64,000 bases of DNA from Corallococcus silvisoli (GCF_009909145.1 NZ_JAAAPJ010000005.1:336470-400469); one strand, 5' to 3'; positions 24,593 to 60,453 are shown, numbered from the stretch's first letter. A program made the numbers and translations. The notes: generated by a model from the letters alone, not told the origin.

Positions 24593-24791
24593 GTCCACGT
24601 CCTTCCCAAATGGATGCATATCCAGATGATGAGGATAATGCATTCTTTGGGGACCGCGCCGCACCACCCGTGCGTGCCACCGCGTCCTCCGCGCCGAGCC
24701 GAGGGCGCGGGGTGCCGCCGAACGTCGAGCATCGCGCGTCCTCCCGGTGCGGGAGGAGCCGGGGCCCCGGAGCCTGGGGTATGAGCACGGG

Positions 24792-26189
24792 GTGCTCGTG
24801 TCCTCGCGCGTCCGCTCCCTGCTGTCCCTCCTCACCGTGGCCATGACGGGAGGGGGCGCGTCCGTGGCCTGGGCCGAGGAGGAGCCCGGGGCCGCCTCCG
24901 GCCCGCCGGAGGTCGCGGAGGTGCGGGTGGAGGGCGTGGACAAGACGAGGCCCTCGACGGTGCGTTCGTACGCGCGGCTGGACGTGGGTGACACCGTCGA
25001 CGAAGAGCTGCTGCGCAAGGTGGAGCGGCGCCTGCTGGCCACGGGCCTGTTCCAGGAGGCCCACGCGAGCACGGAGCCCCTGCCCGACGGCCGCGTGCGG
25101 CTGGTGCTGAAGGTGACGGACAAGGCGTCGTGGGTGGTGGCCCCGACGGTGGCCTTGTCCTCCGCCAACACCGGCGGCGGCCTGCTCTACGCGGAGAACA
25201 ACCTGGCCGGCCGCGCGAAGAAGTTCGCCGTCGCCGGGCAGGTCAGCACCGCCGAGAGCGGCCTGTACGTGGGCTTCCTGGACCCGCTCCTCTTCGGCCT
25301 GCCCCAACTGAAGTTCAGCCTGGAGGGCCAGCTGCGCAGCGACCGCGTGGACGAGTACCTTCCAGGGGCGAGCCAGGCGGATCCGGAGATCCTCCGGCGC
25401 ACGCGGCTCAACTCCGCGGCCCTGGGCGCGGAGCTGGGCTTCATCCTCTTCGAGCGGGTGCGCGCGGCGGCGAAGTACCGCGTGTCCAGCATCGACGCGC
25501 AGTCGCCGGACCCGAAGAAGCCGGTCACAGCGCAGGCGTTCTCCACCGGCCCCGCCCTGCGCGACACGTCGCTGCGCTTCATGGTGGGCCTGGACTCGCG
25601 CCAGACGCTGCACGCGGTGACGGAGGGCCTCAACCTGGAGGGCTCCTACGAGGTGTCCGTCCCGGGCGTGTGGAGCGAGTTCCGCTACCGCAAGTTCAGC
25701 GTCCTCTACCGCCAGGGCCTGCGCTTCTTCAGCGAGCACAACCTGGTGCTGCGCGGCGAGCTGAACGTGGGAAAGGACCTGCCCTTCCACCAGGAGCTGG
25801 TGATGGGCGGCACCACCCTGCGGGGCTTCCAGTACCGCCAGTTCCGCGGCGACACCCGGCTCACCCTCAGCGCCGAGTACCACTTCCCGCTCTTCTCCGT
25901 GAAGTCGCTGGCCTTCCGCGGCGTGGGCTTCTCCGACACGGGCGCCATCGCGTGGAGGGACCTGCCCGCGGATGGAACGCTGACCGACACCACCGGTCGC
26001 GTCATCCGCCGTTACCTGCCGGAGTCCAGGTCCGGCCTGGACCACGCCACCGTGGCCCAGGGCGTGGGCGCGGGCCTGCGGCTGTACTTGAGCAACGTCG
26101 TCCTGCCCCTGCTGGGCGTGGACGTCGCGTACGGCGTCAACTCCGGCCAGGTGCGCGTCTACCTCGTGGCCGGAGTCACGCCCTCCTGA
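24792..26189 (+). CDS. Omp85-family outer-membrane beta-barrel protein with N-terminal POTRA (TamA/TpsB/BamA-like)
   Basis: Signal peptide (VRSLLSLLTVAMTGGGASVAWA). POTRA-like segment (VRVEGVDKTRPSTVRSYARLDVGDTVD). C-terminal surface-antigen D15 barrel with alternating aromatic beta-strands ending in ...VRVYLVAGVTPS. Start (GTG 24792) is uncertain. Confidence 0.7.
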   Translation: MLVSSRVRSLLSLLTVAMTGGGASVAWAEEEPGAASGPPEVAEVRVEGVDKTRPSTVRSYARLDVGDTVDEELLRKVERRLLATGLFQEAHASTEPLPDGRVRLVLKVTDKASWVVAPTVALSSANTGGGLLYAENNLAGRAKKFAVAGQVSTAESGLYVGFLDPLLFGLPQLKFSLEGQLRSDRVDEYLPGASQADPEILRRTRLNSAALGAELGFILFERVRAAAKYRVSSIDAQSPDPKKPVTAQAFSTGPALRDTSLRFMVGLDSRQTLHAVTEGLNLEGSYEVSVPGVWSEFRYRKFSVLYRQGLRFFSEHNLVLRGELNVGKDLPFHQELVMGGTTLRGFQYRQFRGDTRLTLSAEYHFPLFSVKSLAFRGVGFSDTGAIAWRDLPADGTLTDTTGRVIRRYLPESRSGLDHATVAQGVGAGLRLYLSNVVLPLLGVDVAYGVNSGQVRVYLVAGVTPS

Positions 26190-26195: not shown

Positions 26196-27149
26196 TCAGC
26201 TGGCGCGGGCGCTGACGTCCGCGTCCGCCGGGTCCGGGACCTTCACGCCGGGCCAGTCCTCCGGCGCCAGGTCCAGGCTGAAGGGCGGCGCCTCGCCGCG
26301 CAGCGTGTGCCACAGCGCGTAGTCCGCGCACAGCGCCTGCGCGATGCGGCCGGACGTCGTGCGAACGCGCTCCACGACCGCCTGATGCTCCTCGGGCGTC
26401 TGCGCCTCCAGCATCGCGACGACGTTCTCCCAGACGCGCTGCCGCCAGACGATGAGCATCTGCATGACGGCCCGCTCCACCATGGGGCGGCTGAAGGGCA
26501 CGAGCAGGACGAGCTTCGTGGACGTGCAGTGGTAGCGCTCGACGAGCAGATCCAGACACTCGGGGATGCACGAGCGGAGGATCTCATTCACGTGGAAGTA
26601 GTCGTGCCGGTAGCGCGCCATGCGCCGCGCATCCGCCGGGGGAGACTGGTGCGCGATGTTGTCGTAAACGACCATGCCCAGGTCGTGGTTGATGTGCGCG
26701 CTGACGCCCAGGAGCGCGTCCTGGAACGGCCGCGTGAGTCGCTGGGCCGGATAGTGCGTCGCGAAGCGCCAGGCGGCCGTGGGCAGCGGCAGGTTCTTCA
26801 GCGAGTCCCGCACCGCGATGAGCGCCTCCTCCGCGAAGCGGCCCGTCAGATGCGACAGCCACTCGGGCTCCAGGAACCCGCCCGCGTCCGGCTGGCTCAA
26901 CAGGTGGACCACCCGCCGTGTGACAATGGCGTAGATGTCCAGGAAGATGGCGCGTGAATCATCCCGTGCGTTCAGCCGGGCGAGGATCTTCTCCAGACCC
27001 TCCAGCGCTTCCTCCGCGTTGATGGGATTCCAGAGGACGTCATCCAGTTGGATGGGGCCCGTGTCTTCCGGGGCCTTCGTCTCATGGAGGTGGACGGCCT
27101 TCGAACGATTCTTCCGGTGCGGCTCGGGGGAAACCGGTGAAACATTCAT
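26196..27149 (-). CDS. Hypothetical protein (about 317 aa, His-rich alpha-helical protein; family not confidently assigned)
   Basis: Coding-like ORF. Possible metal-binding His (HINHDLG, YRHDYFH). No confident family call. Confidence 0.5.
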   Translation of the reverse strand: MNVSPVSPEPHRKNRSKAVHLHETKAPEDTGPIQLDDVLWNPINAEEALEGLEKILARLNARDDSRAIFLDIYAIVTRRVVHLLSQPDAGGFLEPEWLSHLTGRFAEEALIAVRDSLKNLPLPTAAWRFATHYPAQRLTRPFQDALLGVSAHINHDLGMVVYDNIAHQSPPADARRMARYRHDYFHVNEILRSCIPECLDLLVERYHCTSTKLVLLVPFSRPMVERAVMQMLIVWRQRVWENVVAMLEAQTPEEHQAVVERVRTTSGRIAQALCADYALWHTLRGEAPPFSLDLAPEDWPGVKVPDPADADVSARAS

Positions 27150-27255
27150 GGAGTGACGCTCCACGGCTGGGGGAACGACTTCGCATGAAACCTTATCTCA
27201 CCCGGTACTTTCTGTAACGCCAGCCCCCCCGGAAAAACGCTTTGTTTCAGCGAAT

Positions 27256-27282
27256 CCCCGCGTGTCGACATGACACGCGGGG
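27256..27282. terminator. Perfect 11-bp inverted repeat with a 5-nt loop (ccccgcgtgtc-gacat-gacacgcgggg) just downstream of the cytochrome operon
   Basis: Read directly from the sequence. Lies 20-50 nt beyond the 3' end of the minus-strand cytochrome c gene. Candidate intrinsic terminator, although the U-tract is weak and displaced. Confidence 0.35.
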
Positions 27283-27305
27283 CATTTGTCACCCGCTTGT
27301 GGCAC

Positions 27306-28559
27306 TCAGGGCGCGGTGCCTTCGCTCACGCCACTGCCCGTCTTGCCCAGCACATACTTCGCGAGCGTGAGGGCGTTGGCCTCGTCGAGGAGGGATTCGT
27401 AGGTGGGCATCTGCGTCCCGGGCTTGAAGGACTCCGGGTTGCGGATCCACTTCGCCACCTCTTCGGCGGGCTTGCCCTTCGCGCCCTGGAGCTTGGCCTC
27501 GAACTGCTTGTTGGCGCCGTGGCACGAGGCGCAGCCCAGGGAGCTGAACAGCTTCTCCGGGTCGTTGGTGGGCTCCGCCTTGGGACGGCCACCGGCGGGG
27601 GGCGGCACGGCCTTGTCGTTGGCCTTCATCGTGCGCAGGAAGGTGTAGATGGCGGTGAGCTCCACGTCGTCCGCGTAGCGGTACTTGGGCATCGGCGCGC
27701 GCAGGATGTAGCCGCCCGGCGTCACACCGGTCTTCATCGCGAGCTTGAACTCCTCCAGCGTCCACTTTCCGATACCGGCCGTCTCGCTGGGGGTGATGTT
27801 GGGCGACAGCAGCTTGCCCTCGCCGCCCATGGGCGTGAGGTCGAACTCGAAGCCGCCGCTCAGCACCGTGTCCGGGTTCTTCAGCTTCGCCGCGCTGCCC
27901 TCGAAGCCGGGCGAGTGGCAGAAGACGCAGTCGTAGACGCTGGCGGACACGTAGCGGCCGTACTCCACGGAGTCCGCCGCCTTCGCGGGGATGACCACCG
28001 GCTCCGTGCGGGCCTTGTCGTTGATGCCCATCGCGAAGGAGAACACCATCCGGCCCATGGGCGTCAGCACGGAGCGCGGCGGCTGGGACTGCTCCGGCGC
28101 GAAGTCCGGGTGACCGGAGCGCATGAAGCCAATCACCGCCGCCAGGTCCTTGTCGCCCATGTTGGGGAAGGCCGGCATGGGGCGCACGTGGTTGTCACGG
28201 TCGATGGCGTTGATGACCATGCGGGCGATCTCCTCGTCCTTCCAGGCGCCCACGCCCTTCTCCGGATCCGAGGTGATGTTCGCCGAGTAGAACGTGCCCA
28301 GCTCCGGCGGGAAGTCGTGCATCTGCACGCCGGTGGGCTTCGTGTTGCCGCCGCCAGCGTGACACTCGGCGCACACCGCGCGGAACACCTGCTCACCGCG
28401 GGCGATGCCCTCCGGTGAGCTGTCTCGCTGGATGTTCGGCAGTGCCACGTCCGCGTAGGACTTGTTGATCTTGTGGGTGGCGACACCCATCGCGGTGCCC
28501 GCGCCAATCAAGACCAGGACGACCAATGCTCCAAGGGCCAGCAGTATCTTCTTCACCAT
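27306..28559 (-). CDS. Membrane-anchored c-type cytochrome with three CxxCH haem-binding motifs
   Basis: N-terminal TM anchor (ILLALGALVVLVLIGAG). Haem motifs CAECH, CVFCH and CASCH. Confidence 0.8.
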   Translation of the reverse strand: MVKKILLALGALVVLVLIGAGTAMGVATHKINKSYADVALPNIQRDSSPEGIARGEQVFRAVCAECHAGGGNTKPTGVQMHDFPPELGTFYSANITSDPEKGVGAWKDEEIARMVINAIDRDNHVRPMPAFPNMGDKDLAAVIGFMRSGHPDFAPEQSQPPRSVLTPMGRMVFSFAMGINDKARTEPVVIPAKAADSVEYGRYVSASVYDCVFCHSPGFEGSAAKLKNPDTVLSGGFEFDLTPMGGEGKLLSPNITPSETAGIGKWTLEEFKLAMKTGVTPGGYILRAPMPKYRYADDVELTAIYTFLRTMKANDKAVPPPAGGRPKAEPTNDPEKLFSSLGCASCHGANKQFEAKLQGAKGKPAEEVAKWIRNPESFKPGTQMPTYESLLDEANALTLAKYVLGKTGSGVSEGTAP

Positions 28560-28661
28560 GGGGAACGTTGCTCCGGCAGGACGGGGACACGGCTCTCCGC
28601 CGGTCCCCTCGAAAGGGGAGCCGGCGGAGCGGAGGCGTTGGGACGGGGTGTGACGGGGGTG

Positions 28662-29774
28662 CTACTGCCCGGGCACGCAGGTGCTGGGCGGGGGAATCGA
28701 CGGCGTCGTCGACGGGGTGCTGCTCGCCATCTGGAGGCCGGCGAACGTGACGATGCCGGGGATCTGCGGAATGGCCAGCGCCTGGAGCAGCCAGGGCCGC
28801 CCCTCCGGCGCGCTCGTCGTGGAGTCCTTCGCCGTGTACGTGACGACCGGCGGCGGGCCCATCAGCGGCGGGTGGACGACGGCGACCAGGCCCAGGCTGC
28901 TGTTGGGGGCGGGCGGGCCGGGCGGGATGAAGAAGCCGCGCGGCGACTGGAGCGGCGCCAGCGGCGGCGGCAGCGCGCCCACCGGTGCCCACTCGATGTT
29001 GAGCACGCGGCCGGACGTGGCCTCCACGGTGGTGTTCGCCGCGGGCACGCGGAAGACGGGGAACCCCGGGCGGTAGAGCCAGAAGACCGTCACGCCGCCG
29101 AAGCGGGCCGGGTTGAGCAGGTCCTGCACCGTGACGGAGGTGCCCTCGGAGCTCAGGCGCCGGGCCACCGCGTCCAGGATGCCCTTGTCGCTCACCTGGA
29201 GCGCCTCCAGGCCCACGCACGCGCTGTGGGCCGGCACCACCGGACGCACGGTCATCGTGGTCAGGTAGTTGCCTTCCACGACGGGCGGCAGCGGCGGCGA
29301 CGGGGCGTCGTTGGCCAGCGTGCCCTGCTGTCCCAGCGACAGGACGAAGAACGGCGCGCCCCGGCGGGTGGGCACCTTCTCCAGGGTCCACAGGCCCGTG
29401 GGCCCGGACACCACGGGCGCGGGCGGCGGGGGCGGCTGCCCCGTGGCCGGGTCCGGCACCGTGTCCTGCAGGGTCACCAGCGCGTTGCGCACCACCGAGC
29501 GCTGCAGCAGCGGGCTGAACTCCGCGTACAGCGGCGGCAGCTGGCACTGCGTGCCCGGCGGGGCGCAGTTGGCCAGGTTGATGAAGTAGGCCTCCGGATC
29601 CACCGTGAAGCCGGTGAGCCGGGAGGTCAGACCCTCCGGCTCGCGGTTCTGGTAGTTCGGGCGCGGGATGAACGTCGACACCGCGGGGGAGGAGGATTCC
29701 TGGCAGCCGGCGCCCAGCAGGGCCGCGCCAAGGAGCGTTCCAACGTAGAGGGCTCTTTGCATGGCTCGTCGCAT
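28662..29774 (-). CDS. Pro-rich lipoprotein of unknown function, between the two cytochromes
   Basis: Lipobox LLGAGC. Pro-rich (PPPPPAP, PPLPP). No haem motifs. Stop is 3 nt from the upstream gene. Confidence 0.6.
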   Translation of the reverse strand: MRRAMQRALYVGTLLGAALLGAGCQESSSPAVSTFIPRPNYQNREPEGLTSRLTGFTVDPEAYFINLANCAPPGTQCQLPPLYAEFSPLLQRSVVRNALVTLQDTVPDPATGQPPPPPAPVVSGPTGLWTLEKVPTRRGAPFFVLSLGQQGTLANDAPSPPLPPVVEGNYLTTMTVRPVVPAHSACVGLEALQVSDKGILDAVARRLSSEGTSVTVQDLLNPARFGGVTVFWLYRPGFPVFRVPAANTTVEATSGRVLNIEWAPVGALPPPLAPLQSPRGFFIPPGPPAPNSSLGLVAVVHPPLMGPPPVVTYTAKDSTTSAPEGRPWLLQALAIPQIPGIVTFAGLQMASSTPSTTPSIPPPSTCVPGQ

Positions 29775-29777
29775 CCC

Positions 29778-31688
29778 CTACTTCGCGGGGAGGATGTGTC
29801 GGGAGGGAAGCTGATCGCCGCCGTGGCACGTCTGCGCGCAGTTGCCGAACCGGCTGGGCGTGCCGCGCTGACTGAAGGCGATCTGGAAGAACTCGTCACC
29901 GTGCTGAGACACGTGGCACGAGCCGCACAGCGACAGGCTGGGCCGCTCGGTGCTCTTGCGCGTCAGGTGGCAGACGGTGCAGTCCGCGCGGTTCGCCGGG
30001 TAGCTGGGCGAGTTCATGTGGATGCGGTGCACCATCTCCTGCGTGCGGCCCACCGTGTCGGTGTCGTAGTGGTGGCACACCTTGCAGCTCTCGATGTGGT
30101 CCACCGACAGGCCGTGGCGCAGGTTGTCCAGCGACAGCACGCCGCGGTGGCACAGCTGGCAGTTGCCCACGTTGCCCGGGTAGGTCGTCGGCTCGTCCTG
30201 GCCCACCTGGAAGAAGAACGGCGACATCTTCGCCACGCGCTCGCCCATGGCGGCGCGGTTGAACTTCACCAGCGCCACGTAGGTGCCCGGCTTCGCGTCC
30301 GCGGGCAGCGTGAACGTCTGGCGCGTGGGCCACTTGAAGTCGACGAGGCCCGGCGTCAGCCCCGTGAGCGTGGCGTCATCCAGGAAGGCGAACGGGAACG
30401 GCTTGGCGAAGAACTGGGGCTTGTCGCCCGGGTCGCCCAGCACCTTCAGGTCCTGGATGGGACCGGCGATGGCCACGTTGGAGATGGAGTCGTTCTCCGT
30501 GATGATCCCGATGACGTTGGGGACGAACGTCATGATGCCGTTGGCCTGGTTGGTGATGATCTCCTTCGCGGACGGCAGCAGGTCCGGCGAGTGCAGGTGG
30601 GCGCCCGCGCTGTCGCGCAGGTCGACGTACATGCTCACGTCCTCGCCGGGCTTGTAGAAGCTGCCCTCCTTCGGGGGCGAGAACACCAGCCGCGAGTCCA
30701 GGCCCGGGCTGCACTGCACCGCATTGCCGCTGTCGTCGGTGCAGGTGGACGGGCGGTCATCCGGGATGACGTACGTCACCGGGAAGTAGAACGGGCGGTC
30801 CGGCAGCTGGCTCCAGGTCGCCTTGAGCGCGCCGGGGCCCGACAGGCGCGGGATGCGCAGCACCTTGAAGGGGTTGGTGCTGCCCACCATGTCCACGCGC
30901 GCGATGGTGCGGAACGTGGGGCCCTGCGCCATGCCACCCGGGAAGCCCGCCACGTTGCGGGTCTCCTTGTCACCGGGGAAGCGCGGCGCCTGCAGGTTCT
31001 CCGAACGCCAGGAGAAGCGGCTGTGGCCCGCGTAGGGCGAGGACGCCAGCAGCTCCGAGCGCAGGTACGTCTGGCTGGCGCGCGGGGCGCCCGTCTCGTC
31101 CAGCACCTCCACGGTGATGGTGTCGCCCTTCACCTTCTGCCAGTTCGCGTTGCCGAACTGCACCTCGCGGGTCCAGCAGTCCTCCACGGCCCCGCCGAGG
31201 CTGTAGAAGCTCCACTCGTCCGCGCCCTGGTTGACGTTGCTCCAGTCCAGGCCCGCGAAGACCGACTGGTTCTTGATCCACCCCAGCGCGGCGCTCAGGT
31301 CGGTGGGGTTGGTGTGCTGGTTGACCACCGTCTCCGAGACGGAGAACTGGTTCAGGAAGTACTGGGTGTCCGACAGGATCTGCAGCGTGCCCGTGGGGGG
31401 CGACAGCGTCAGCGGATCCTGGCCGAGCGGCGTGATGCACACGTCCGGGTACGGGACGGGCACTCCGTTCTTCGCGACCATCTGCCCGTTGGGAAGAAAG
31501 GCGCAGCCGTTGATGTACTGGAGGCTGAGCCGGATCGCGCCGGAATCAAGCCCCTGGTACGGGTCGAACCGCTTGGCGCCGCGCCCCGTGGTGGAGCCTT
31601 CGTCGTCGGTGACCTTGAGGAGGTTGCAGGACAGCAGGGGCACCAGCAGGGCGCACCACGCGCTCTTGCGTAGGATTGAGCGGATCAT
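29778..31688 (-). CDS. Multihaem c-type cytochrome lipoprotein (large N-terminal beta-rich domain plus a C-terminal cluster of 5 CxxCH/CxxxCH motifs)
   Basis: Signal/lipobox LLVPLLSC. C-terminal 120 aa carry CQLCH, CKVCHH, CTVCH, CGSCH and CAQTCH. ATG 31688 preferred over the longer ORF. Confidence 0.75.
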   Translation of the reverse strand: MIRSILRKSAWCALLVPLLSCNLLKVTDDEGSTTGRGAKRFDPYQGLDSGAIRLSLQYINGCAFLPNGQMVAKNGVPVPYPDVCITPLGQDPLTLSPPTGTLQILSDTQYFLNQFSVSETVVNQHTNPTDLSAALGWIKNQSVFAGLDWSNVNQGADEWSFYSLGGAVEDCWTREVQFGNANWQKVKGDTITVEVLDETGAPRASQTYLRSELLASSPYAGHSRFSWRSENLQAPRFPGDKETRNVAGFPGGMAQGPTFRTIARVDMVGSTNPFKVLRIPRLSGPGALKATWSQLPDRPFYFPVTYVIPDDRPSTCTDDSGNAVQCSPGLDSRLVFSPPKEGSFYKPGEDVSMYVDLRDSAGAHLHSPDLLPSAKEIITNQANGIMTFVPNVIGIITENDSISNVAIAGPIQDLKVLGDPGDKPQFFAKPFPFAFLDDATLTGLTPGLVDFKWPTRQTFTLPADAKPGTYVALVKFNRAAMGERVAKMSPFFFQVGQDEPTTYPGNVGNCQLCHRGVLSLDNLRHGLSVDHIESCKVCHHYDTDTVGRTQEMVHRIHMNSPSYPANRADCTVCHLTRKSTERPSLSLCGSCHVSQHGDEFFQIAFSQRGTPSRFGNCAQTCHGGDQLPSRHILPAK

Positions 31689-31909
31689 GGAAGACGAGGC
31701 CGGGGGAAGGCAGAGGGAGGAAGGGAAGGAGGTGCACTCACGCGCAGGCCCACGCGTCCTACCCTTCCCGACGCCGCCACCACTTCGCCACGCGAAGTCG
31801 GTGAGGGCCGGCAAGGGTTGGGAGGAGAACACCTCATCGCATCAAACTGACCACATTATGAGAGTCCGCGCAATTCGCGAACCTCCCGGGGAATACCGGA
31901 CACGGTGGA

Positions 31910-32851
31910 TCAGCGGCCTCCCGGGAGGAGAAGGAAGCCCGCGGACAACAAGAGCGCGAAGACGAGCCCCAGGCCCGCCGTCCTGCCCAGGTGGGGATTG
32001 AGGGCGCTGCCGTCCTCGCGCCAGATGGCGCGGATCTCCCGGGCCGCCAGCGGGAGCGCCAGCAGCGGACAGAGCCACGCCAGCGGGTGTCCCGGCAGCG
32101 TCATCCAGGAGATGACGGGGATGACGAACGCGCCGACCACCGCCACCGTGTACTCCCACTGACCGAAGGCCCGGCCAAAGCGCACCACCAGCGTGCGCTT
32201 GCCGGCGGCCCTGTCCGTGTCGCGGTCCCGCAGGTTGTTCACCGCGAGGATTCCGGACGCGATGAGCCCCATGGACAGGCCCGCGAGCACGACGCCCGGC
32301 GTGACGTGGTGGGCGAGCACGGCGTAGCTGCCGGACACCCCGGACAGGCCGAAGATGAGCAGCACCAGCACGTCCCCCAGGCCCATGTAGCCCAGGGGCA
32401 CCGGGCCCGCGGAATAGAAGACCGCGCCCGCGAGACAGAAGGCGCCGCCCGCGAACACGGGCCAGCCCCCCACCGGGGTCAGCACCAACAGCGCGAGCAT
32501 GGAGCCAGCGAACGCCAGGGCCGCGGCGCTCGCCACCTCGCGCGCGCTCAGCCAGCCCTTCTGGGTGACGCGCGCGGGCCCCAGCCGCTCGGCCGTGTCC
32601 GCGCCGCGCTCGAAGTCCGCGTAGTCGTTCACCAGGTTGCTGACGATCTGCATCAGCACGAAGCCCACCAGGAACGTGAGCGCTGGCGCGGGCCGCCAGC
32701 TGCCTTCCGCGTTGGCGAAGGCCCAACCCAGCAGGGTCGGAGCCACCGACGCGGTCAGCGTCTTGGGGCGCAGCGCGAGCCACCAGATGCGCGCCAACGG
32801 GGGTTTTGCTTCAAGCGCGACACTCGACGACGGGGGATTCGGAGTGGCCAT
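31910..32851 (-). CDS. menA: 1,4-dihydroxy-2-naphthoate polyprenyltransferase (UbiA superfamily, MenA-like)
   Basis: UbiA-family Asp-rich motif NDYADFERGAD and a second motif DRDTDRAAGKRT. About 8 TM segments. Confidence 0.75.
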   Translation of the reverse strand: MATPNPPSSSVALEAKPPLARIWWLALRPKTLTASVAPTLLGWAFANAEGSWRPAPALTFLVGFVLMQIVSNLVNDYADFERGADTAERLGPARVTQKGWLSAREVASAAALAFAGSMLALLVLTPVGGWPVFAGGAFCLAGAVFYSAGPVPLGYMGLGDVLVLLIFGLSGVSGSYAVLAHHVTPGVVLAGLSMGLIASGILAVNNLRDRDTDRAAGKRTLVVRFGRAFGQWEYTVAVVGAFVIPVISWMTLPGHPLAWLCPLLALPLAAREIRAIWREDGSALNPHLGRTAGLGLVFALLLSAGFLLLPGGR

Positions 32852-33079
32852 GTGACCCTGGGGGAAGGGCAGCAGGCGCACGCTAGTGCTACAAAACATC
32901 CGTATCAATACGTCTCATGTCTCAAATGAAACATCCTCACTCTCAGGAATCATGTGTTTTATCGCCCAGAAACGTAAAAACCGATAACTCGAAACACGCG
33001 CATCCGGCGCGACGGCACCAGAGCAGAATAAGCAGATTTACGAGCTTAAAATGCTCTCCCGGGTGATAAGACCCGGGGC

Positions 33080-33775
33080 ATGATCCCTTCCCATCTCCCG
33101 CTCTCCCGTTCCCCTTCCCTTTCGCGTCGGAGTGTCCTGGCGCTGCTCGGCGTCGTCGCGCTCGCGCTCGGCGGCTGCGACACGGCGCTCTCCATCGCCG
33201 ACGCGCGTTCGCGTGGCACCGGCGCGGAGGTGACGGTGGAGGGCACCGTCACCGTGGCCCCCGGCACCTTCGCCTCCGCGTTGGGGGACGAAGGGTTCGC
33301 GATCCAGGACGACACCGCCGGCCTCTACGTCAAGGTGGCCGAGAAGCTGTCGTTCGGGCTGGGCGCCCGCGTGCGCGTCACCGGCACGCTGGATGAGCAG
33401 AACCAGCTGCGCATCCTCAAGGCCGTGCCCGCGGACGTCGAGCTGAAGTCCGGAACCGGGACCGTGCCCCCGAAGGACGTCTCCACCGGCGGCGTGAACG
33501 AGTCCGTGGAGGGCCAGCTCATCCGCGTCAGCGGCGCCATCACCCAGGCGTTCCAGGACGACTCGCCCTACGGCTACAAGCTCTACATCAACGATGGCTC
33601 TGGCGAGGTGCAGGTGTTCGTGCACGTGTCGGCCGGCTTCGACGCGGCGGCGCTGAAGGCCCTCGCCGTGGGCCAGCGCATCCAGGTGGTGGGCCTGGCC
33701 GCCCAGTACGAAACGACCTACGAGGTCGCGCCCCGCATGCCGGGCGACCTCGTCGTCCAGACGACGACCCCCTAG
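33080..33775 (+). CDS. Lipoprotein of unknown function (OB-fold-like beta domains)
   Basis: Lipobox LALGGC. Val/Gly-rich beta-strand pattern. No catalytic motif recognised. Confidence 0.55.
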   Translation: MIPSHLPLSRSPSLSRRSVLALLGVVALALGGCDTALSIADARSRGTGAEVTVEGTVTVAPGTFASALGDEGFAIQDDTAGLYVKVAEKLSFGLGARVRVTGTLDEQNQLRILKAVPADVELKSGTGTVPPKDVSTGGVNESVEGQLIRVSGAITQAFQDDSPYGYKLYINDGSGEVQVFVHVSAGFDAAALKALAVGQRIQVVGLAAQYETTYEVAPRMPGDLVVQTTTP

Positions 33776-47216: not shown

Positions 47217-50200
47217 TCACCCCCCCCGCGCGGCGCGGAGCGGCGGGAGCGCCGCGGTGCCGGGCAGCAGGGCCTGCATCGCGGCCTGGAAGCGGTCCAT
47301 GCGGCGCAGCTCCGCGTGGGCCTCCACCTGCGTGAAGATGGCCCGGGCGCGGGCCAGGAACGCGTCCCGCCGGTGCGGCAGCGCCACCGCCGCGTCGAAG
47401 TAGGCCACGCCCGTCTCCCAGCGGTTGGGGCTCTTCTCCAGGACGGCGATGGCCTCCAGGAACACCGGCTCCGCGGCCCTCGGGCCCTTGCGCAGGGCCA
47501 GGGCGCGCGCCGTCACGCGCAGCGCCGGGCCCTTGAGGTACGGGTACAGCCGGGCGATCACGCGCGCCTTGAGGCAGGCCAGCCGCACGATGCGCAGCAG
47601 CTTCTTGCGCGACACCACCGTGGCGCCCTCCTCCAGCGCGAAGAGGGCCGCCTCCGCCGCGTCCACCAGCCCCACCTGGAGGAAGGGCACCAGCACCTGG
47701 TAGCTCCAGATGCTCTTGAAGCAGCGCACCGCGACGAGCGCCGCCTCCTCCACCTGGTGCTCGCGCACGGTGACGTTGGCCAGGTGGTTGAGGCTCGCGC
47801 ACTGGTTGGCCAGGTCCGCCACCTCCATGCTGATGCGCAGGCCCTGCTCCATCTCCGCGCACAGCTCGCCGACGTCGCCTTCGCCCAGCAGGTAGCGGCA
47901 CATGGGCGCCCACGAGTGCGCCCAGCCCTGGTGCATCAGCGCGTTGAGCTCCAGGCCAATGGTCCCCATCTGCTCGTAGAGCGACTCCGCCGTCCGGAAG
48001 CGCGAGTGGAGGAACTCCCCTGTCGCCTGCATCATCAGGGACGTCTGGCGCTCCCAGCGCTCGCCCACCTGGCGCAGCGTGGAGACGGCCTCCTCCTGGA
48101 ACTCCCGCGCGCGCTCCAGCTCGTTGGCGAAGAAGGCCTGGATGCCCAGGCGGCTGAGCGCGAGCCCCTCCGCCACGGGGTCGCGGGAGCGCAGTGCGTA
48201 GGTGAGCGCCCGCTCGCAGTGCAGCCGCGCGCGCTTGAGCAACCCCGCGCCGAACAGCAGCGTGCCGTAATAGCCGCTGGCGAGGCTCATGGCGTAGTCG
48301 CTGCGCGAGCGCTCCGCCATGTTGGTGGACACCAGCGTCGCCCAGGTGAGCTTGGTGATGTCCGCGAAGTAGTAGATGCGGATGAGCGAGTTGAGCGTGG
48401 ACAGCTGCTGGAGGTAGTTGCCCAGCCGCGACGCGGGCAGCGGCCGCAGCACGAACGGCATCAGCGTGGCCAGCCCCCGGAGGAGCAGGTTGCCCAGCGT
48501 CCGCGCGCCCAGCGCGGCCAGGTTCCCGGGGAGGCTGCGGCCTCGGAGGACCAGCGACTGCTCCAGGTGCTGCGTGGCCAGCGCGGACTCGCCCTTCTCC
48601 TGGTGCGCGCGGCCCAGGCCCAGGTGCAGCTCCGCCTGCTGCGGCACCTCCTCCTCGTCCACCAGGCACTGCTCGAACATCAGGATGGCGTTGGCGTAGT
48701 GGCCCGCCTGGAGCAGCGTCTCCGCCAGCTCCTGCATCACCCGGCGCGTCTTCAGCAGCATCGCCTCCGGGTCCACCGGCACGACGGTGCCCAGGAGCTC
48801 CAACCCCCGGTTGTAGTGGTAGAGGGCGTCGTCGTTGGCGTACTGCGCCCGCGCGCTGCGGGCCGCCATCAGCGTGTACTCCAGGCCCTTGTCCTCCACG
48901 TTGCCCGCGAGGAAGTGGAACGCGAGCAGACCCGCGGAGCCCGCGAGGTTGTCGCTCGCGCGGGCCTCCAGGTAGCGCGCGAGCCGGCGGTGCAGGTCCT
49001 CGCGCGCCGACACCAGCAGCGTGTTGTAGGCCACGTCGCGGATGACGATGTGCTTGAAGAGGCAGGTGTAGGGCTCCTCCGCCTCCAGGAGGGTGAGGCC
49101 CAGGCGCCGGAGCGTGTCCATGGCCTCGCGGAGCCTCGGGCCGGCCAGGGAGGGCACCAGCGCCGCCACCGCGTCCAGCGTGAAGATGCGCCCGATGACG
49201 GACGCCACCTTCACCACCAGCTTCTCCGTCTCGCTCAGCAGGTCGATGCGCGACAGCACCACGTCCTGGATGGAGTCCGGGAGCAGCAGGTCCTGCAGGC
49301 CGCGCTTCACCTCCATCCGCGACGCGCCGGGCTCCACCGGTCCCAGGTAGCCCTGCTCCGCCAGGCCCTCCACGATGGACTCGATGAAGAACGGGTTGCC
49401 CTGCACCTTCGCGAGCAGCCGCTCCTCCAGCGCCACGTCCGGCGGCGACAAGCGCAGGTGCACGCGCAGGAGCGCTCGCGTGTCCTCGTCGTCCAGGCTG
49501 CTCAGGTCCACCGGACAGTACTCGGGCGTGTCGCGCAGCCCCTTGAGCTGGTCGCCCGGGCGCATCGTCGCCAGCACCATGATGCGGTGCGACCCCACGC
49601 GCGCCGCGAGGTGCTGGAGCAGGTCCAACGAGATGTAGTCCGCCCAGTGCAGGTCCTCGAAGAAGAGCAGCAGCGGCTGCGCGTGGCTGAGCTTCTCCAG
49701 GAGCTGGAAGACGATCTGGAACACCTTCTGCTGCTTGCGCCTCGCGTCCATCCCCGCCGTGACGGACGTCTCCTCCAGGGACATGCCCAGGATGCCCGCG
49801 ACCACGGGCATCCACTCCGGCCCCACGTCCTCCAGGCCGTCCAGCCCCTGCCGCAGGCGCGTCAGCTGCGCCTCCGTGTCATCCGAGTCGTGCAGCCCGA
49901 AGGCCTGGAGCAGCACTTCCTTCCAGGGGAAGAAGGGGGTGAACATCTCGTAGGAGTAGCAGACGCCGTACAGCGCCCGCGCGCCGCCCTCCTCCGCGTC
50001 CTCCAGGACGCGCGCGCCCAGCCGTGACTTGCCGATGCCGGCCTCGCCGGACACCACGCACACGCGGCCCTGGCCGGTGAACGACGCGTTCAGCGCCTCA
50101 TGCAGCACGTTCAGCTCACGGCTGCGGCCGATGATGTCGCCCCGGCCCTTGATGAAGAGGCCGCGGCGCGTCTCCCCCAGCAGCCGGTACACCGGCACCG

Positions 50201-51509: not shown

Positions 51510-51525
51510 CCCCAGGGCCTTCCGC

Positions 51526-51927: not shown

Positions 51928-52066
51928 GGTGGCGAACGTGGCAGGGGCCTGGCGTCCGCGATGCCGGGCGCACCCTGCCCCACGTGTCCATCCTAGAATC
52001 TTTTCCCACCCCGTGGGGTACCTTCCCCCCACCCACCAAGGCCGGTGGGTCGCCTGCCCCGGCCGG

Positions 52067-52597: not shown

Positions 52598-52840
52598 GAC
52601 TGCATCCTCCCCAGGAGCCCCGAGCTGCGTGAGCCCCTGTTCCATGCGAATCCGTTGCCAACGCCGCAAGGGCTCACGGACCGCCGTGCGGCCTCCCTCC
52701 CGTCCACCCGTGGAAGGTGCGCGGGGCGAGCGTCCGACACCCGTCGCTTCCCCCCGCCTGGAGCGCCAGACGCCCTCACCCAACCTGGGATGTCGGACCC
52801 CTCCTCTACCTTCGTTCACGAATGAGCCCGGAGACTGCCC

Positions 52841-56973: not shown

Positions 56974-56977
56974 CCGC

Positions 56978-57831: not shown

Positions 57832-60453
57832 CTAATAATGGAGTCGAACTTCTGTGAAGACGCCCAGCGGCGGAGCGGGGAAGCCGTGGGACTCCTCGTA
57901 CTTCGCGTTGAACAGGTTCGTGCCCAGCAGGGACACCGCCACCCGTTCGTGGACGTTGAAGCCCACGCGCGCCGTCGCGGTGATGTAGCTGGGCAGCTTC
58001 ACGCGGGTGGTGGTGCCCGCGTTCTCGTCCACCACGAAGCCGGGGTCGAAGCGCGGGCCCACGAACAGGCCGTAGAGCTCCACGAAGGCGAACTTCCCGA
58101 TGTTGGTGCGGCCGCGCAGGTAGACGCGGTGGCTGGGCGCGTAGTCCAGCGGGTAGCTGGCCCCGCCGCCCACGGGCAGCGCCTGGGCATCCAGGAACTG
58201 GTAGGCCACGTCGAAGGACGAGTTGAGGGACGGCACCTGCGCCGCCGCCTCCGCCTCGAAGCCCGCCACGCGCGCGTCGCCCAGGTTGCGGAACTGGGAC
58301 GTGGAGCCGAAGACGAGCTCCTGATTGATGAAGTTGCGGGCGCGGTTGTAGAAGCCCGTGCCCGTCAGGCGCACCCGGCGGTCGAACGGCCAGAAGTCCA
58401 CCGCCGCCTCCACCGTGTCCAGCGTCTCCGCGCGCAGCGACGGGTTGCCCAGCAGCGTCGCGGCGTACATCTGCTGGTTGATGGCGAGCTCCGCCAGCGT
58501 GGGCGCGCGGAAGGCGCGGCCGTAGTTGGTGCGCAGCGTGAGCAGCTCCGGGATGGCGTGGAACACGACGCTGGCGCGCGGGGAGATCTGATCCGTGCGC
58601 GCCTCCCAGACCTTTTCGGGGATCTGGTAGTTGTCGTAGCGGGCGCCCGCGCCCACCACCAGCCGGTCCGTGGCGCGGAACTCCGCGTCCACGAAGCCGC
58701 CCAGGATGGTCTGCTTCGTGTCATCCAGGGTCAGGCCCGGGAGCACGTTCTGGTTGTTCACCTGGTCGGCCTTCACGTCGCCGCCCACGGTGACGGACAG
58801 CCGGTCCAGGGAGAAGAGCGCGCGCGCCTCGCCGCCCAGCCGGCTGCGCTTGCCCAGCGTGTCCTCCAGCGCGCCCGTGATTTCATTCTCCAGCGTCACG
58901 TTGCGGCGCTTGAAGAACGCATAGCCCTGGGCGAACACGCGCACGTTGTCCGTCACCTGCTGATCCAGCTGCACGGCGGCGTTCAGGTTCTGGACGTGCT
59001 CGTTGTCCTGCGCGGTGTAGTGGCAGCGACCGCAGTTGCCCACGGTGGAGATGTTCTGCCCACCGGGCCGGCCGATGTTGCCGTCGGTGAAGTCCGCGTC
59101 CAGCGCGAGGGGACCCACGCGGACCTTGCCGTTCACCTGGTGCACCAGCGAGTCCTCGTTGGTGTCCGTCTGGTTGAGCTGCGGGTTGTTGAAGAGCTGC
59201 GGGCCGTCCGAGCCGTAGCCGTAGTAGCCGAGCAGCGCCTCCACGGGGCCACCGCGGCCGGCGACGTTGGTCTGCAGGCGCCACGTCTTGTCCTGGCCGG
59301 CGAGGATGCGCGCGTCGGCGCCCACGTTCTGGCCCTTGGCGATGAGATCGCCCGGCTGGCGCTCGATGATGTTGATGACGCCGCTGAAGGCGTTGGAGCC
59401 GTAGAGCGACGAACCCGGGCCGCGGATGACCTCCACCTGCTTGAGGTTGGTCAGCGGCGTCGTCTCATCCGCGTAGAACTGGCCCGTCCAGGGATCCGTC
59501 AGCGGACGGCCATCCTTGAGCAGCAGGAGGCGGTTGGACAGGTAGTTGGAGCCCAGGCCGCGCGCGCTCACCGCCGCCTTGCGCATGGAGCCCCGGCGGC
59601 ACTCCATGCCGGGGAAGTACTGGATGGCCTCGCAGAGCGAGAACTGGCCGGTGCCCTCCAGCTCCTCCGCCGGAATCCAGGACACCGTGAGGGGCACGTC
59701 GGAGATGCGCTGGCTGCGCTTGGAGGCCGTGGTGACCATGGCCTCGCTCAGCGCCTGGTTGACGGTCTTCTCGAAGTCGTCGCCGTTGCCCAGCGCATCC
59801 GGGCCATCCAGGCCGGAGAGGCTGGAGGGCGGCGGCATCGCGCGGTCCGACGCGGGCTCCGTGAAGGGCGCGCGGTCCGGGACGTTCTCGTTCATCCGCG
59901 GCTGCGAGCCCGACAGCACCGCGCCAGCGCCCAGGTGCTGCGCGGGCGGCGGGTTGGCCGGCACATCCGACGTCAGCGGGCCGTCGTAGGGAGACGGCGA
60001 CGCGACGGGCGTCCCCGGCGAGGCGACGGGCATCGGATCCGCCACCGACGGGCCCGGGCCGGGCGCGGCCACCGGGGCCGGCTGCTCCACGGGCGGCGTG
60101 GCGACGAACGGCTCCTCCGTGGGAGATGGCGCGGCGTCCGGCTCCACGGGCGGCGGAGGCGTCTTCGCCCCCCTGCGCGTCTTCGCCGTGCGCGCGGGTT
60201 TCGTCCCCGGCGCGGCGCTCTTCGCCGCTGGCGTGGCGCTCTTCGCCGCTGGCGTGGCGGGCGCGGCACGCTTGCGCGTGGCCTTCGTCCGCGTCTTGGG
60301 AGCCGGCTCCTGGGCCTCCTGGGCCTGGGCACGTTCCACCGTGAACAGCGACAGGGCGCACAGCACCAACGTCAGACGCGCGAACGCGCCCGGCCGTCCT
60401 GCAAGCCCCTTCACCGCGAAGCTTCGCGGCCCACCGTACTCAGTCGAGTCCAT
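57832..60453 (-). CDS. TonB-dependent outer-membrane receptor with a long Ala/Pro/Lys-rich N-terminal extension
   Basis: Plug domain (DVPLTVSWIPAEEL...VEVIRGPGSSLYGSNAFSGVINI). 22-strand barrel ending in the terminal aromatic motif ...EVRLHY. N-terminal ATPAAKS repeats. Confidence 0.85.
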   Translation of the reverse strand: MDSTEYGGPRSFAVKGLAGRPGAFARLTLVLCALSLFTVERAQAQEAQEPAPKTRTKATRKRAAPATPAAKSATPAAKSAAPGTKPARTAKTRRGAKTPPPPVEPDAAPSPTEEPFVATPPVEQPAPVAAPGPGPSVADPMPVASPGTPVASPSPYDGPLTSDVPANPPPAQHLGAGAVLSGSQPRMNENVPDRAPFTEPASDRAMPPPSSLSGLDGPDALGNGDDFEKTVNQALSEAMVTTASKRSQRISDVPLTVSWIPAEELEGTGQFSLCEAIQYFPGMECRRGSMRKAAVSARGLGSNYLSNRLLLLKDGRPLTDPWTGQFYADETTPLTNLKQVEVIRGPGSSLYGSNAFSGVINIIERQPGDLIAKGQNVGADARILAGQDKTWRLQTNVAGRGGPVEALLGYYGYGSDGPQLFNNPQLNQTDTNEDSLVHQVNGKVRVGPLALDADFTDGNIGRPGGQNISTVGNCGRCHYTAQDNEHVQNLNAAVQLDQQVTDNVRVFAQGYAFFKRRNVTLENEITGALEDTLGKRSRLGGEARALFSLDRLSVTVGGDVKADQVNNQNVLPGLTLDDTKQTILGGFVDAEFRATDRLVVGAGARYDNYQIPEKVWEARTDQISPRASVVFHAIPELLTLRTNYGRAFRAPTLAELAINQQMYAATLLGNPSLRAETLDTVEAAVDFWPFDRRVRLTGTGFYNRARNFINQELVFGSTSQFRNLGDARVAGFEAEAAAQVPSLNSSFDVAYQFLDAQALPVGGGASYPLDYAPSHRVYLRGRTNIGKFAFVELYGLFVGPRFDPGFVVDENAGTTTRVKLPSYITATARVGFNVHERVAVSLLGTNLFNAKYEESHGFPAPPLGVFTEVRLHY

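What the first reader, a model, noticed from the sequence alone, without database searches (positions are those of the whole stretch)
27306..32851. MenA, multihaem cytochrome lipoprotein, Pro-rich lipoprotein and trihaem cytochrome: a compact envelope electron-transfer cluster
Four co-directional genes sit with 3-100 nt spacing: menaquinone prenyltransferase, a lipoprotein with a large beta-rich N-domain and 5 haem motifs, a Pro-rich lipoprotein, and a membrane-anchored trihaem cytochrome. It looks like a dedicated menaquinol-to-periplasm (or outer surface) electron conduit rather than part of a standard respiratory complex. An imperfect hairpin sits between the last two genes and a perfect 11-bp inverted repeat follows the operon.
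Basis: partly seen in the sequence, partly recalled or inferred. Interest (0 to 1): 0.5.

Follow-up and report, generated by a model that had tools for sequence, protein, structure and literature searches.

The report
Myxobacterial MtrC-like cytochrome lipoprotein gene cluster
A soil myxobacterium (Corallococcus) carries an uncharacterised three-gene set found across its family: a five-haem outer-membrane lipoprotein distantly related to the metal-reducing cytochrome MtrC, a partner lipoprotein, and a membrane-anchored three-haem cytochrome; it sits beside vitamin-K2 (menaquinone) synthesis genes and probably moves electrons between the membrane quinone pool and the cell envelope.

Summary
Four co-directional minus-strand genes lie at exactly the stated coordinates, with 5 and 3 haem motifs, two lipoboxes and both hairpins. 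One detail is wrong: the menA-to-cytochrome gap is 221 nt, not 100 or less, and it holds a conserved non-coding leader.

In 60 related genomic loci the invariant core is the pentahaem lipoprotein (MHC) plus the Pro-rich lipoprotein (ProLp), present in 59 of 60. A di- or trihaem class-I cytochrome c is adjacent in about 34 loci, at varying positions.

MenA is adjacent only in this Corallococcus clade. In Hyalangium, however, the trio sits inside the men cluster (menF-trio-menD-menA-menC), so a link to menaquinone genes recurs in different gene orders.

The MHC haem domain is a remote homologue of MtrC/OmcA domain II. Its N-terminal region is tandem beta-sandwiches, not an enzyme. The trihaem protein is homologous to the quinone-reactive cytochrome subunit II of membrane-bound dehydrogenases.

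A TonB-dependent receptor with a conserved CGRCH motif flanks MHC-ProLp in other lineages, and one lies 26 kb away in this window.

Verdict: a real, undescribed, probably quinone-linked envelope electron-transfer module. Direction, substrate and surface exposure are unknown.

The parts
31910..32851 (-). menA, 1,4-dihydroxy-2-naphthoate polyprenyltransferase (313 aa). A neighbour, probably transcribed separately.
   Evidence: TIGR00751 187.5 bits (cut-off 102); PF01040 UbiA E=7.5e-34. Adjacent to the MHC gene only in the 10 clade-A Corallococcus loci.
31689..31876 (-). Conserved non-coding block upstream of the MHC gene (promoter/operator and/or structured 5' leader).
   Evidence: Present in all 11 clade-A sequences; the first ~60 nt are nearly invariant (32 identical, then 21 identical, with 2-3 variable columns between). 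Indels of 1 and 3 nt exclude coding. RNAalifold gives 60 pairs, 5 with compensatory changes. Single-sequence z = -2.26. No Rfam hit. Not found in clade B or C loci by nhmmer.
29778..31688 (-). MHC: pentahaem lipoprotein (636 aa) with tandem beta-sandwich domains (about residues 45-500) and a C-terminal MtrC-like five-haem domain (about 500-636).
28662..29774 (-). ProLp: Pro-rich lipoprotein (366-370 aa), obligate partner of MHC, no cofactor motif.
28595..28629 (-). Conserved GC-rich hairpin in the 102-nt ProLp-TriC spacer (possible intra-operon attenuator or RNA stabiliser).
   Evidence: Inverted repeat. Conserved in 9 Corallococcus loci, with 5 pairs changed on both sides.
27306..28559 (-). 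TriC: N-terminally membrane-anchored trihaem class-I cytochrome c (417 aa).
   Evidence: 3 CxxCH, each followed by a conserved Met-Pro motif. PF00034 and PF13442. PDB phmmer: FdhC 7w2j_C 4e-20, GDH beta subunit 8hdd_B 6e-19, AdhB 8gy2_B 7e-16.
27256..27282 (-). Perfect 11-bp inverted repeat after the TriC stop; terminator-like hairpin without a U-tract.
   Evidence: -29.5 kcal/mol, z = -3.5. An equivalent hairpin is visible in six of the other clade-A sequences by eye in the alignment, though the RNAalifold consensus there is weak.
57832..60453 (-). Candidate distant partner: TonB-dependent receptor (873 aa) with a conserved CGRCH motif, the subfamily that flanks MHC-ProLp in other lineages.
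   Evidence: PF07715 and PF00593. CGRCH at residue 474, aligned with the motif in 7 MHC-adjacent receptors; 64% identical to the L014 receptor. In L014 the same synteny block holds MHC-ProLp between the kinase and SLOG genes.

Best explanation
MHC, ProLp and TriC form a Myxococcaceae-specific envelope electron-transfer module with its own conserved upstream leader. menA is a neighbouring menaquinone-biosynthesis gene, not a subunit.

Proposed mechanism:
- TriC is held in the inner membrane by its N-terminal helix. It exposes three His/Met c-haems to the periplasm and exchanges electrons with the menaquinone pool, as its homologues (subunit II of membrane-bound alcohol, fructose and gluconate dehydrogenases) do with ubiquinone.
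- MHC is an outer-membrane lipoprotein. Its beta-sandwich domains act as a stalk or binding platform. Its five bis-His haems form an MtrC-type chain that passes electrons to or from an extracytoplasmic substrate.
- ProLp is a non-redox outer-membrane lipoprotein that stabilises, positions or targets MHC.

I favour outward flow, at about 55:45 over inward: menaquinol to TriC to MHC to Fe(III)/Mn(IV)/humic-type acceptors. This could serve reductive iron acquisition together with the CGRCH TonB-dependent receptor.

Shown: gene anatomy, haem motifs, homologies, synteny. Inferred: quinone reactivity, localisation, partner contacts, direction and substrate.
For: - The MHC-ProLp pair is present in 59 of 60 loci, with gaps of 3-40 nt in most loci. 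A cytochrome of the TriC family is adjacent in 34 loci, despite moving from downstream to upstream of the pair.
- TriC is homologous to FdhC, AdhB and the GDH beta subunit. That subunit reduces ubiquinone (PMC9171043).
- men linkage occurs in independent arrangements: menA-MHC-ProLp-TriC (clade A); menF-CytC-MHC-ProLp...menD...menA-menC (L021); menF upstream with menD and menA downstream (L011); menA divergent and menF downstream (L034); menF downstream (L009).
- Lipoprotein sorting: +2 is Asn (MHC) and Gln (ProLp), not Lys; +7 is not Ala. By the M. xanthus rules this predicts the outer membrane (PMC3222651; sequences).
- A CGRCH TonB-dependent receptor is adjacent to MHC(-ProLp) in L033, L036, L040, L041 and L053, and three genes away in L014. 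Distant relatives also sit next to TonB-dependent receptors: L062 (two CxxCH) and L061 (only the plug domain is on the contig). L061 also carries a 30-haem cytochrome.
Against: - No trans-outer-membrane porin or periplasmic multihaem carrier is encoded at this locus or in most of the 60 loci. How electrons would cross the periplasm or outer membrane is therefore open.
- Every characterised TriC relative carries electrons towards quinone, not from it. His/Met haems at the inner-membrane end and bis-His haems at the outer end suit inward flow better.
- In Myxococcus and Archangium (clade C) there is no men linkage, and the cytochrome is a dihaem lipoprotein.
- menA adjacency in Corallococcus may be a remnant of an ancestral men-cluster location.
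- Six close metagenomic relatives of the CGRCH receptor have no MHC nearby. They pair instead with a cytoplasmic 281-aa protein and a Ser/Thr kinase.
- The hosts are known as strict aerobes (own knowledge).
- There are no experimental data. All homologues are annotated as hypothetical, and literature searches found nothing on this family.
Confidence: 0.45

Rival explanations
1. Same anatomy, opposite direction: an electron-uptake (oxidative) module. MHC collects electrons from an extracellular or periplasmic reductant, such as Fe(II), reduced humics or quinones, or prey-derived reductants. It hands them to TriC. TriC then feeds the aerobic chain, either by reducing menaquinone or by donating directly to a cytochrome oxidase.
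For: - All characterised TriC homologues accept electrons from a periplasmic partner and pass them to quinone (PMC9171043).
- TriC's third domain also resembles c551/c550-type oxidase donors and the caa3 subunit II cytochrome domain (2yev_B, 2pac_A).
- Bis-His haems (usually lower potential) at the outer end and His/Met haems (usually higher) at the inner end make inward flow downhill. This is an inference from ligation seen.
- The hosts are aerobes (own knowledge).
Against: - His/Met haems would reduce menaquinone (about -74 mV) only if their potentials were unusually low.
- Characterised MtrC-family proteins act mainly as terminal reductases.
- Lithotrophic or humic oxidation is not known in Myxococcaceae.
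- The TonB-receptor association fits iron uptake better.
Confidence: 0.25
2. The module is real but is not tied to the quinone pool. TriC is simply an inner-membrane-tethered c-type carrier connecting MHC to bc1, alternative complex III or the terminal oxidases. The proximity to men genes is inherited synteny with no functional meaning, and menA here is the ordinary housekeeping gene.
For: - menA is separated by 221 nt and a conserved promoter/leader block. Conservation falls to 0.30 after its stop codon.
- In L008 an extra ~580 nt separates menA from the leader.
- Clade C and the TonB-receptor-type loci have no men genes.
- MenA divergence tracks that of its neighbours, with no sign of a specialised paralogue.
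- TriC scores below every curated NCBIfam cut-off.
Against: men genes flank the trio in at least four different orders and orientations across two clades. Pure inheritance would be expected to erode such linkage. The nearest solved homologues of TriC are specifically the quinone-reactive subunits.
Confidence: 0.2
3. MHC is a conventional periplasmic redox enzyme (for example a reductase or peroxidase) whose large N-domain is catalytic, with ProLp as a maturation factor. This would give a standard enzymatic assignment.
Against: - No Pfam or NCBIfam catalytic domain was found.
- All five haems have conserved distal His, so none has the open coordination site typical of catalytic haems.
- The Kustc1130 match is a generic 79-residue transthyretin-like domain.
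Confidence: 0.07

Closest known systems
MtrC/OmcA/MtrF/UndA outer-membrane multihaem cytochromes of Shewanella (PF22113, TIGR03507)
   Same: It is a lipoprotein. Its C-terminal pentahaem domain aligns with MtrC domain II, with four haem motifs and three distal His in register. These proteins are the best structural neighbours. Beta-rich domains precede the haem domain.
   Different: It has only one pentahaem domain (5 haems, not 10 or 11), and the last site is CxxxCH. The N-terminal region is about 450 residues of Ig/MG-like sandwiches, not the MtrC split barrel. It scores below the Pfam and TIGRFAM cut-offs. No MtrA or MtrB genes are nearby. It is always paired with ProLp. The hosts are aerobic Myxococcaceae.
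Trihaem cytochrome c subunit II of membrane-bound quinone-reducing dehydrogenases (AdhB, FdhC, gluconate/glucose dehydrogenase cytochrome subunits)
   Same: It has three class-I c-haem domains with His/Met motifs. Sequence similarity is significant and co-linear over domains 1-2. It is membrane-associated.
   Different: No PQQ, FAD or molybdenum catalytic subunit is adjacent; the partner is a multihaem lipoprotein. The anchor is an N-terminal helix. The host quinone is menaquinone, not ubiquinone (own knowledge). Clade C uses a dihaem lipoprotein version.
Porin-cytochrome conduits (MtrCAB, Geobacter Pcc, Cyc2)
   Same: It combines outer-membrane and inner-membrane c-type cytochromes in one cluster. 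In other lineages a beta-barrel with a CxxCH motif sits next to the MHC gene.
   Different: There is no porin and no periplasmic multihaem protein in this cluster. The candidate barrel is a 22-strand-type TonB-dependent receptor with a plug domain, located 26 kb away here. Its CxxCH may instead be a disulfide loop plus a His ligand for transported haem; its closest solved relatives are Cir and the haem receptors PhuR and ShuA.
CymA/ImcH/CbcL quinol dehydrogenases (functional analogues only)
   Same: The proposed role is the same: connecting the menaquinone pool to periplasmic or outer cytochromes.
   Different: There is no homology. TriC is built of class-I domains, not a NapC/NirT tetrahaem or a cytochrome b-containing protein.

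Membership tests
MtrC/OmcA family decahaem outer-membrane cytochromes | N-terminal lipoprotein signal (lipobox Cys) | tested here: met
   The lipobox reads LLSC, and Cys21 is conserved in 90% or more of homologues.
MtrC/OmcA family decahaem outer-membrane cytochromes | Ten (or eleven) haems in two pentahaem domains (II and IV), each preceded by a beta-barrel domain | tested here: not met
   There are five haem motifs only, all within residues 510-622. Only one haem domain appears in the AF2 model.
MtrC/OmcA family decahaem outer-membrane cytochromes | Passes the curated family models (PF22113, TIGR03507) | tested here: not met
   PF22113 scores 22.2 bits against a cut-off of 30. TIGR03507 scores 16 against 209. 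Some homologues carry a precomputed PF22113 hit.
MtrC/OmcA family decahaem outer-membrane cytochromes | Homology of the pentahaem domain, with haem sites and distal His in register | tested here: met
MtrC/OmcA family decahaem outer-membrane cytochromes | Genetic association with an MtrA-type periplasmic decahaem protein and an MtrB-type porin | tested here: not met
   The ORF clustering of the 60 loci (up to 7 kb each side) produced no recurrent neighbour resembling MtrA or MtrB. These were not searched for by name, and whole genomes were not searched.
MtrC/OmcA family decahaem outer-membrane cytochromes | Cell-surface exposure and extracellular reductase activity | not testable with these tools
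   Only an outer-membrane prediction from the +2/+7 sorting rules is available (PMC3222651).
Trihaem cytochrome c subunit II of membrane-bound quinone-reducing dehydrogenases | Three class-I c-haem domains (CxxCH plus a distal Met) | tested here: met
   The motifs are CAECH63, CVFCH211 and CASCH343. The following Met motifs are RPMPAF, APMPKY and TQMPTY. PF00034 matches in three stretches.
Trihaem cytochrome c subunit II of membrane-bound quinone-reducing dehydrogenases | Significant sequence similarity to characterised members | tested here: met
   FdhC 4.3e-20, GDH beta subunit 5.9e-19, AdhB 6.9e-16, ALDH cytochrome subunit 8.9e-9.
Trihaem cytochrome c subunit II of membrane-bound quinone-reducing dehydrogenases | Encoded next to a PQQ, FAD or molybdopterin catalytic subunit | tested here: not met
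   The neighbours are MHC, ProLp, DUF5995 and an Omp85-family gene. No recurrent dehydrogenase catalytic subunit appeared among the neighbours clustered; only the recurrent clusters were annotated.
Trihaem cytochrome c subunit II of membrane-bound quinone-reducing dehydrogenases | Reduces (or oxidises) membrane quinone | not testable with these tools
   This is inferred from homology and men-gene linkage only.
MenA (1,4-dihydroxy-2-naphthoate polyprenyltransferase) | Passes the equivalog model and has the UbiA fold | tested here: met
   TIGR00751 scores 187.5 against a cut-off of 102. PF01040 gives E = 7.5e-34. NF004751 scores 251.7, just below its cut-off of 264.
MenA (1,4-dihydroxy-2-naphthoate polyprenyltransferase) | Sole (housekeeping) copy versus a dedicated second copy | not tested
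   No other men gene lies in the 64-kb window. Divergence tracks that of the neighbouring genes.
Porin-cytochrome trans-outer-membrane conduit | A beta-barrel sheath plus a periplasmic and an extracellular multihaem cytochrome encoded together | tested here: not met
   This is absent from the cluster. The only candidate barrel is the CGRCH TonB-dependent receptor at 57832-60453. That subfamily is adjacent to MHC in other lineages.

The most novel reading that the evidence does not exclude
Myxococcaceae, known as aerobic predators, may possess a previously unrecognised type of envelope electron conduit. In it, an AdhB-type trihaem cytochrome taps the menaquinone pool. A 'half-MtrC' pentahaem lipoprotein with its obligate partner lipoprotein acts at the outer membrane. 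A TonB-dependent-receptor-like barrel carrying covalent haem (CGRCH) provides the trans-outer-membrane step. This would be a new porin-cytochrome architecture used for extracellular metal reduction, reductive iron capture or electron uptake.
Probability: 0.2. Interest if true: 0.8.

Novelty: new variant of a known kind. Interest (0 to 1): 0.55.

Why it matters
Extracellular and envelope electron transfer is understood mainly from Shewanella and Geobacter. A conserved MtrC-related cytochrome module in aerobic, predatory soil myxobacteria would widen both the taxonomic and the architectural range of such systems. Its distinctive features are a single pentahaem domain on a beta-sandwich stalk, an obligate partner lipoprotein, an AdhB-type rather than a CymA-type inner-membrane cytochrome, and a possible haem-bearing TonB-dependent barrel.

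It would also give a testable handle on two questions: how myxobacteria cope with micro-oxic swarms and fruiting bodies, and how they mobilise mineral iron. The family is small: 225 hits with E-value up to 0.001 among 1.84 billion cluster representatives. It is entirely unannotated, so even a basic localisation or knockout study would be new information.

Tried and rejected
- Pfam and NCBIfam on ProLp gave no family.
- An Rfam scan of 26900-33300 gave only a chance-level hit.
- The sigma-70 promoter and T-tract terminator scan gave nothing above the shuffle expectation. A sigma-54-like GG-N10-GC seen by eye in the leader was rejected because the -12 GC is not conserved between species.
- A longer MHC starting at GTG 31832, or a uORF in the leader, was rejected because of 1-nt and 3-nt indels between species and the NCBI start.
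- nhmmer with the leader profile found it only in clade-A Corallococcus loci.
- A search for remnants of MHC, ProLp or other men genes elsewhere in the window found none.
- The idea that the window's menA is an aberrant paralogue gained no support. Its divergence matches that of ProLp and TriC.
- The metagenome scan with the CGRCH-receptor alignment used generic plug motifs. Only 6 close relatives were recovered, and none had an adjacent MHC.
- A second homology search with distant relatives returned only 8 unnamed metagenomic proteins.
- Four literature searches found no paper on this family or on haem-bearing TonB-dependent receptors (the one candidate, read, was irrelevant).
- The afdb50 fold library was unavailable.
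- The M. xanthus DK1622 locus tag could not be obtained, so published proteomes could not be checked.


Full report
**1. What is in the sequence**

The window has about 70% G+C. Its proteins match Corallococcus silvisoli entries NBD09400-09402 exactly. Between 27306 and 32851 four genes lie on the minus strand.

- menA runs from 32851 to 31910. It passes TIGR00751 (187.5 bits, cut-off 102) and matches Pfam UbiA.
- The pentahaem lipoprotein, here called MHC, runs from 31688 to 29778 (636 aa). Its signal peptide and lipobox read MIRSILRKSAWCALLVPLLSC. It has four CxxCH motifs and one CxxxCH, all between residues 510 and 622.
- The Pro-rich lipoprotein, ProLp, runs from 29774 or 29762 to 28662. 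It is 15.8% Pro and has no Pfam or NCBIfam family.
- The trihaem cytochrome, TriC, runs from 28559 to 27306 (417 aa). It has a hydrophobic N-terminal helix and three CxxCH motifs, each followed by a Met-Pro motif.

The gaps are 3 nt (MHC to ProLp), 102 nt (ProLp to TriC) and 221 nt (menA to MHC). That is unlikely. NCBI annotates the 636-aa product, the signal peptide begins at the ATG, and related species differ by 1-nt and 3-nt indels in the upstream stretch.

Both hairpins are real. The perfect 11-bp repeat lies at 27256-27282 (z = -3.5). The imperfect hairpin lies at 28595-28629. It is kept in nine Corallococcus loci, with five pairs changed on both sides.

**2. Which genes belong together**

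A search with MHC found 123 proteins. All named ones come from Myxococcaceae (Corallococcus, Hyalangium, Archangium, Myxococcus, Pyxidicoccus), apart from one record labelled Comamonas, and all are annotated as hypothetical. A scan of species-representative genomes returned 60 loci. I compared them by tblastn and ORF clustering.

- ProLp follows MHC directly in 59 of 60 loci. This pair is the invariant core.
- A cytochrome of the TriC family is adjacent in 34 loci, but its position varies. It lies downstream of ProLp only in the window's Corallococcus clade (A, 85-91% MHC identity). It lies upstream of MHC in clade B (Hyalangium and Archangium MAGs, about 50% identity, three haems). In clade C (Myxococcus, Pyxidicoccus, Archangium, about 40%) it is upstream and is a dihaem lipoprotein.
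- menA is directly upstream only in the 10 clade-A loci.
- Several MAGs carry two MHC loci, so paralogues exist.

Clade B nevertheless shows a striking men context.

- In Hyalangium versicolor (L021) the order is menF (TIGR00543), CytC, MHC, ProLp, then menD (TIGR00173), menA and menC (TIGR01927). The trio therefore sits inside the menaquinone biosynthesis cluster.
- L011 has menF upstream of the trio, then menD and menA downstream.
- L034 has menA divergent from the trio and menF after ProLp.
- L009 has menF after ProLp.

Clade C instead has a Rieske/VanA-like oxygenase upstream and TldD/PmbA pairs downstream.

No other men gene lies in this window. MenA divergence tracks that of ProLp and TriC: 84, 79 and 86% within Corallococcus, and 44, 41 and 42% to Hyalangium. 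There is thus no sign that this menA is an unusual paralogue. Whether it is the only copy could not be tested.

**3. The menA-MHC gap**

A 188-nt block (31876-31689) is present in all 11 clade-A sequences. Its first ~60 nt are nearly invariant: 32 identical positions, then 21 identical, with 2-3 variable columns between.

Mean pairwise DNA identity is 0.63-0.89 within menA. It falls to 0.30 directly after the menA stop. It then rises to 0.75-0.93 through the block and to 0.85-0.97 in the MHC coding region. In L008 menA lies about 580 nt further away, but the block stays attached to MHC.

RNAalifold predicts 60 pairs, five of them with compensatory changes. The single-sequence z-score is only -2.26, and the species are close relatives, so a structured leader is plausible but not shown. 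The block has no Rfam match and is absent from clade B and C loci.

I read this as MHC-ProLp-TriC having their own promoter and leader. menA is probably a separate transcript, although read-through cannot be excluded.

**4. What the proteins are**

MHC.
- In 79 homologues all five haem sites are invariant or nearly so (H592 of CGSCH is conserved at 90% or more), as are His525, 554, 596 and 631; His557 is conserved at 90% or more. This implies five bis-His haems.
- Invariant Cys62, 84, 316 and 326 suggest two disulfides.
- The single sequence hits PF22113 (MtrC/MtrF domains II/IV) only below the cut-off. The family profile, however, hits MtrC (6qyc_A 8e-5; 6r2q_C 1e-4) and MtrF (2e-3). Four haem motifs and three distal His align in register with MtrC domain II.
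- Foldseek against the PDB finds only tandem beta-sandwich proteins, with TM-scores of 0.14 or less.

TriC. It hits the trihaem cytochrome subunits of membrane-bound fructose, glucose, alcohol and aldehyde dehydrogenases, with E-values from 4e-20 to 9e-9. In those enzymes subunit II, with three haem c, reduces ubiquinone (PMC9171043).

Localisation. By the M. xanthus sorting rules, +2 Lys means the inner membrane and +7 Ala means the extracellular matrix (PMC3222651). MHC (CNLLKVT) and ProLp (CQESSSP) are therefore predicted to be outer-membrane lipoproteins.

**5. Wider family and an unexpected partner**

A profile search of 1.84 billion cluster representatives found only 225 hits with E-value up to 0.001. 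About 16 were full-length clusters. A second tier consisted of 590-780-aa lipoproteins with the same layout of four CxxCH plus one CxxxCH.

Two of these distant relatives had readable contexts.
- In L062 the MHC-like gene is followed, after 8 nt, by a TonB-dependent receptor carrying two CxxCH motifs.
- In L061 a 30-haem, 1287-aa cytochrome precedes two MHC-like genes, which are followed by a TonB-receptor plug domain at the contig end.

Within the 60 loci, a TonB-dependent receptor with a CGRCH motif at one conserved alignment position lies next to MHC(-ProLp) in L033, L036, L040, L041 and L053, and three genes upstream in L014. These occur in different orientations.

The window itself encodes a member of this receptor subfamily at 57832-60453 (minus strand, 873 aa, CGRCH at residue 474). 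It is 64% identical to the L014 receptor. It is followed by a 281-aa protein without a signal peptide, a 1106-aa Ser/Thr kinase, a SLOG-family gene and a cyclase/AAA16/TPR gene.

L014 has the same block, but with MHC-ProLp inserted between the kinase and the SLOG gene. L012 has kinase, CytC (three haems), MHC, ProLp, SLOG.

The link is not universal. Six close metagenomic relatives of the receptor all show receptor-p281-kinase without MHC.

The receptor's nearest solved relatives are Cir and the haem receptors PhuR and ShuA. Its CxxCH could therefore bind haem covalently, or it could be a disulfide loop with a His ligand for transported haem. This is undecided.

**6. Mechanism**

The best-supported reading is an envelope electron-transfer module, in three parts.
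- TriC is anchored in the inner membrane and exchanges electrons with the menaquinone pool.
- MHC is an outer-membrane lipoprotein with an MtrC-type five-haem chain.
- ProLp is its structural or targeting partner.

The anatomy, homologies and synteny are shown. Quinone reactivity, contacts, localisation, direction and substrate are inferred.

Direction is open.
- For outward flow: the only characterised relatives of the haem domain are extracellular reductases. Menaquinol is a fitting low-potential donor. The TonB-receptor association suggests reductive iron capture.
- For inward flow: all TriC relatives carry electrons towards quinone. His/Met haems inside and bis-His haems outside give a downhill inward path. 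The hosts are aerobes.

I put outward against inward at about 55:45.

One gap in the model remains. No periplasmic carrier or porin is encoded here, so the periplasmic and trans-outer-membrane steps are unexplained.

**7. Comparison, novelty and verdict**

The MHC works like, and is distantly homologous to, MtrC/OmcA. It nevertheless fails membership of that family: it has five haems rather than ten, scores below the curated cut-offs, and has no MtrAB genes nearby. TriC belongs by sequence to the AdhB/FdhC-type cytochromes but lacks their dehydrogenase partner.

I found no paper describing the combination of MHC, an obligate ProLp and an AdhB-type cytochrome, often beside men genes and sometimes beside a CGRCH TonB-dependent receptor.

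I classify it as a new variant of a known kind, with interest 0.55.

Noticed in passing
window 57832-60453 (-): A TonB-dependent receptor (873 aa) carries a conserved CGRCH haem-type motif at residue 474 and a long Pro/Ala-rich N-terminal extension. The same subfamily flanks MHC-ProLp in six other loci. I found no literature on TonB-dependent receptors with c-type haem motifs.
   Followed up: partly
window 53734-57823 (-): A 281-aa protein with no family and no signal peptide, followed by a 1106-aa Ser/Thr protein kinase, always follows the CGRCH receptor (6 of 6 close metagenomic relatives, plus L014). This suggests a receptor-linked signalling unit.
   Followed up: partly
window 31689-31876 (-): A 188-nt non-coding block upstream of the MHC gene is conserved across 11 Corallococcus loci, and its first ~60 nt are nearly invariant. 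It may form a structured leader (5 compensatory pairs). It has no Rfam family.
   Followed up: partly
window 32852-33079: The 228-nt divergent intergenic region between menA and a 231-aa OB-fold/DUF5818-like lipoprotein gene has only 51% G+C in a 70% G+C genome. It is a likely shared promoter region.
   Followed up: no
window 26196-27164 (-) and 24747-26189 (+): A DUF5995 gene lies directly after the terminator hairpin, and next to it is an Omp85/POTRA-family outer-membrane protein gene. Both are syntenic with the cluster in most clade-A Corallococcus loci but absent from the others.
   Followed up: partly
L061 6057-9920 (+) and 3877-5964 (+): In a metagenomic contig, distant MHC relatives sit beside a 1287-aa lipoprotein with 30 CxxCH motifs and an FG-GAP/ASPIC-UnbV repeat protein. 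This looks like a large extracellular electron-transfer-type cluster.
   Followed up: no
L042 4899-5897 (+) and equivalents in clade C loci: In Myxococcus, Pyxidicoccus and Archangium a Rieske/VanA-like oxygenase without a signal peptide lies directly upstream of the dihaem cytochrome-MHC-ProLp genes, and TldD/PmbA peptidase pairs lie downstream. The relation to the module is unknown.
   Followed up: no
window 47217-53242 (-): A SLOG (LDcluster4) gene and a 1430-aa adenylate cyclase/AAA_16/TPR gene form a block that in clade-B genomes lies immediately downstream of MHC-ProLp. Here the block is present but the pair is not.
   Followed up: partly
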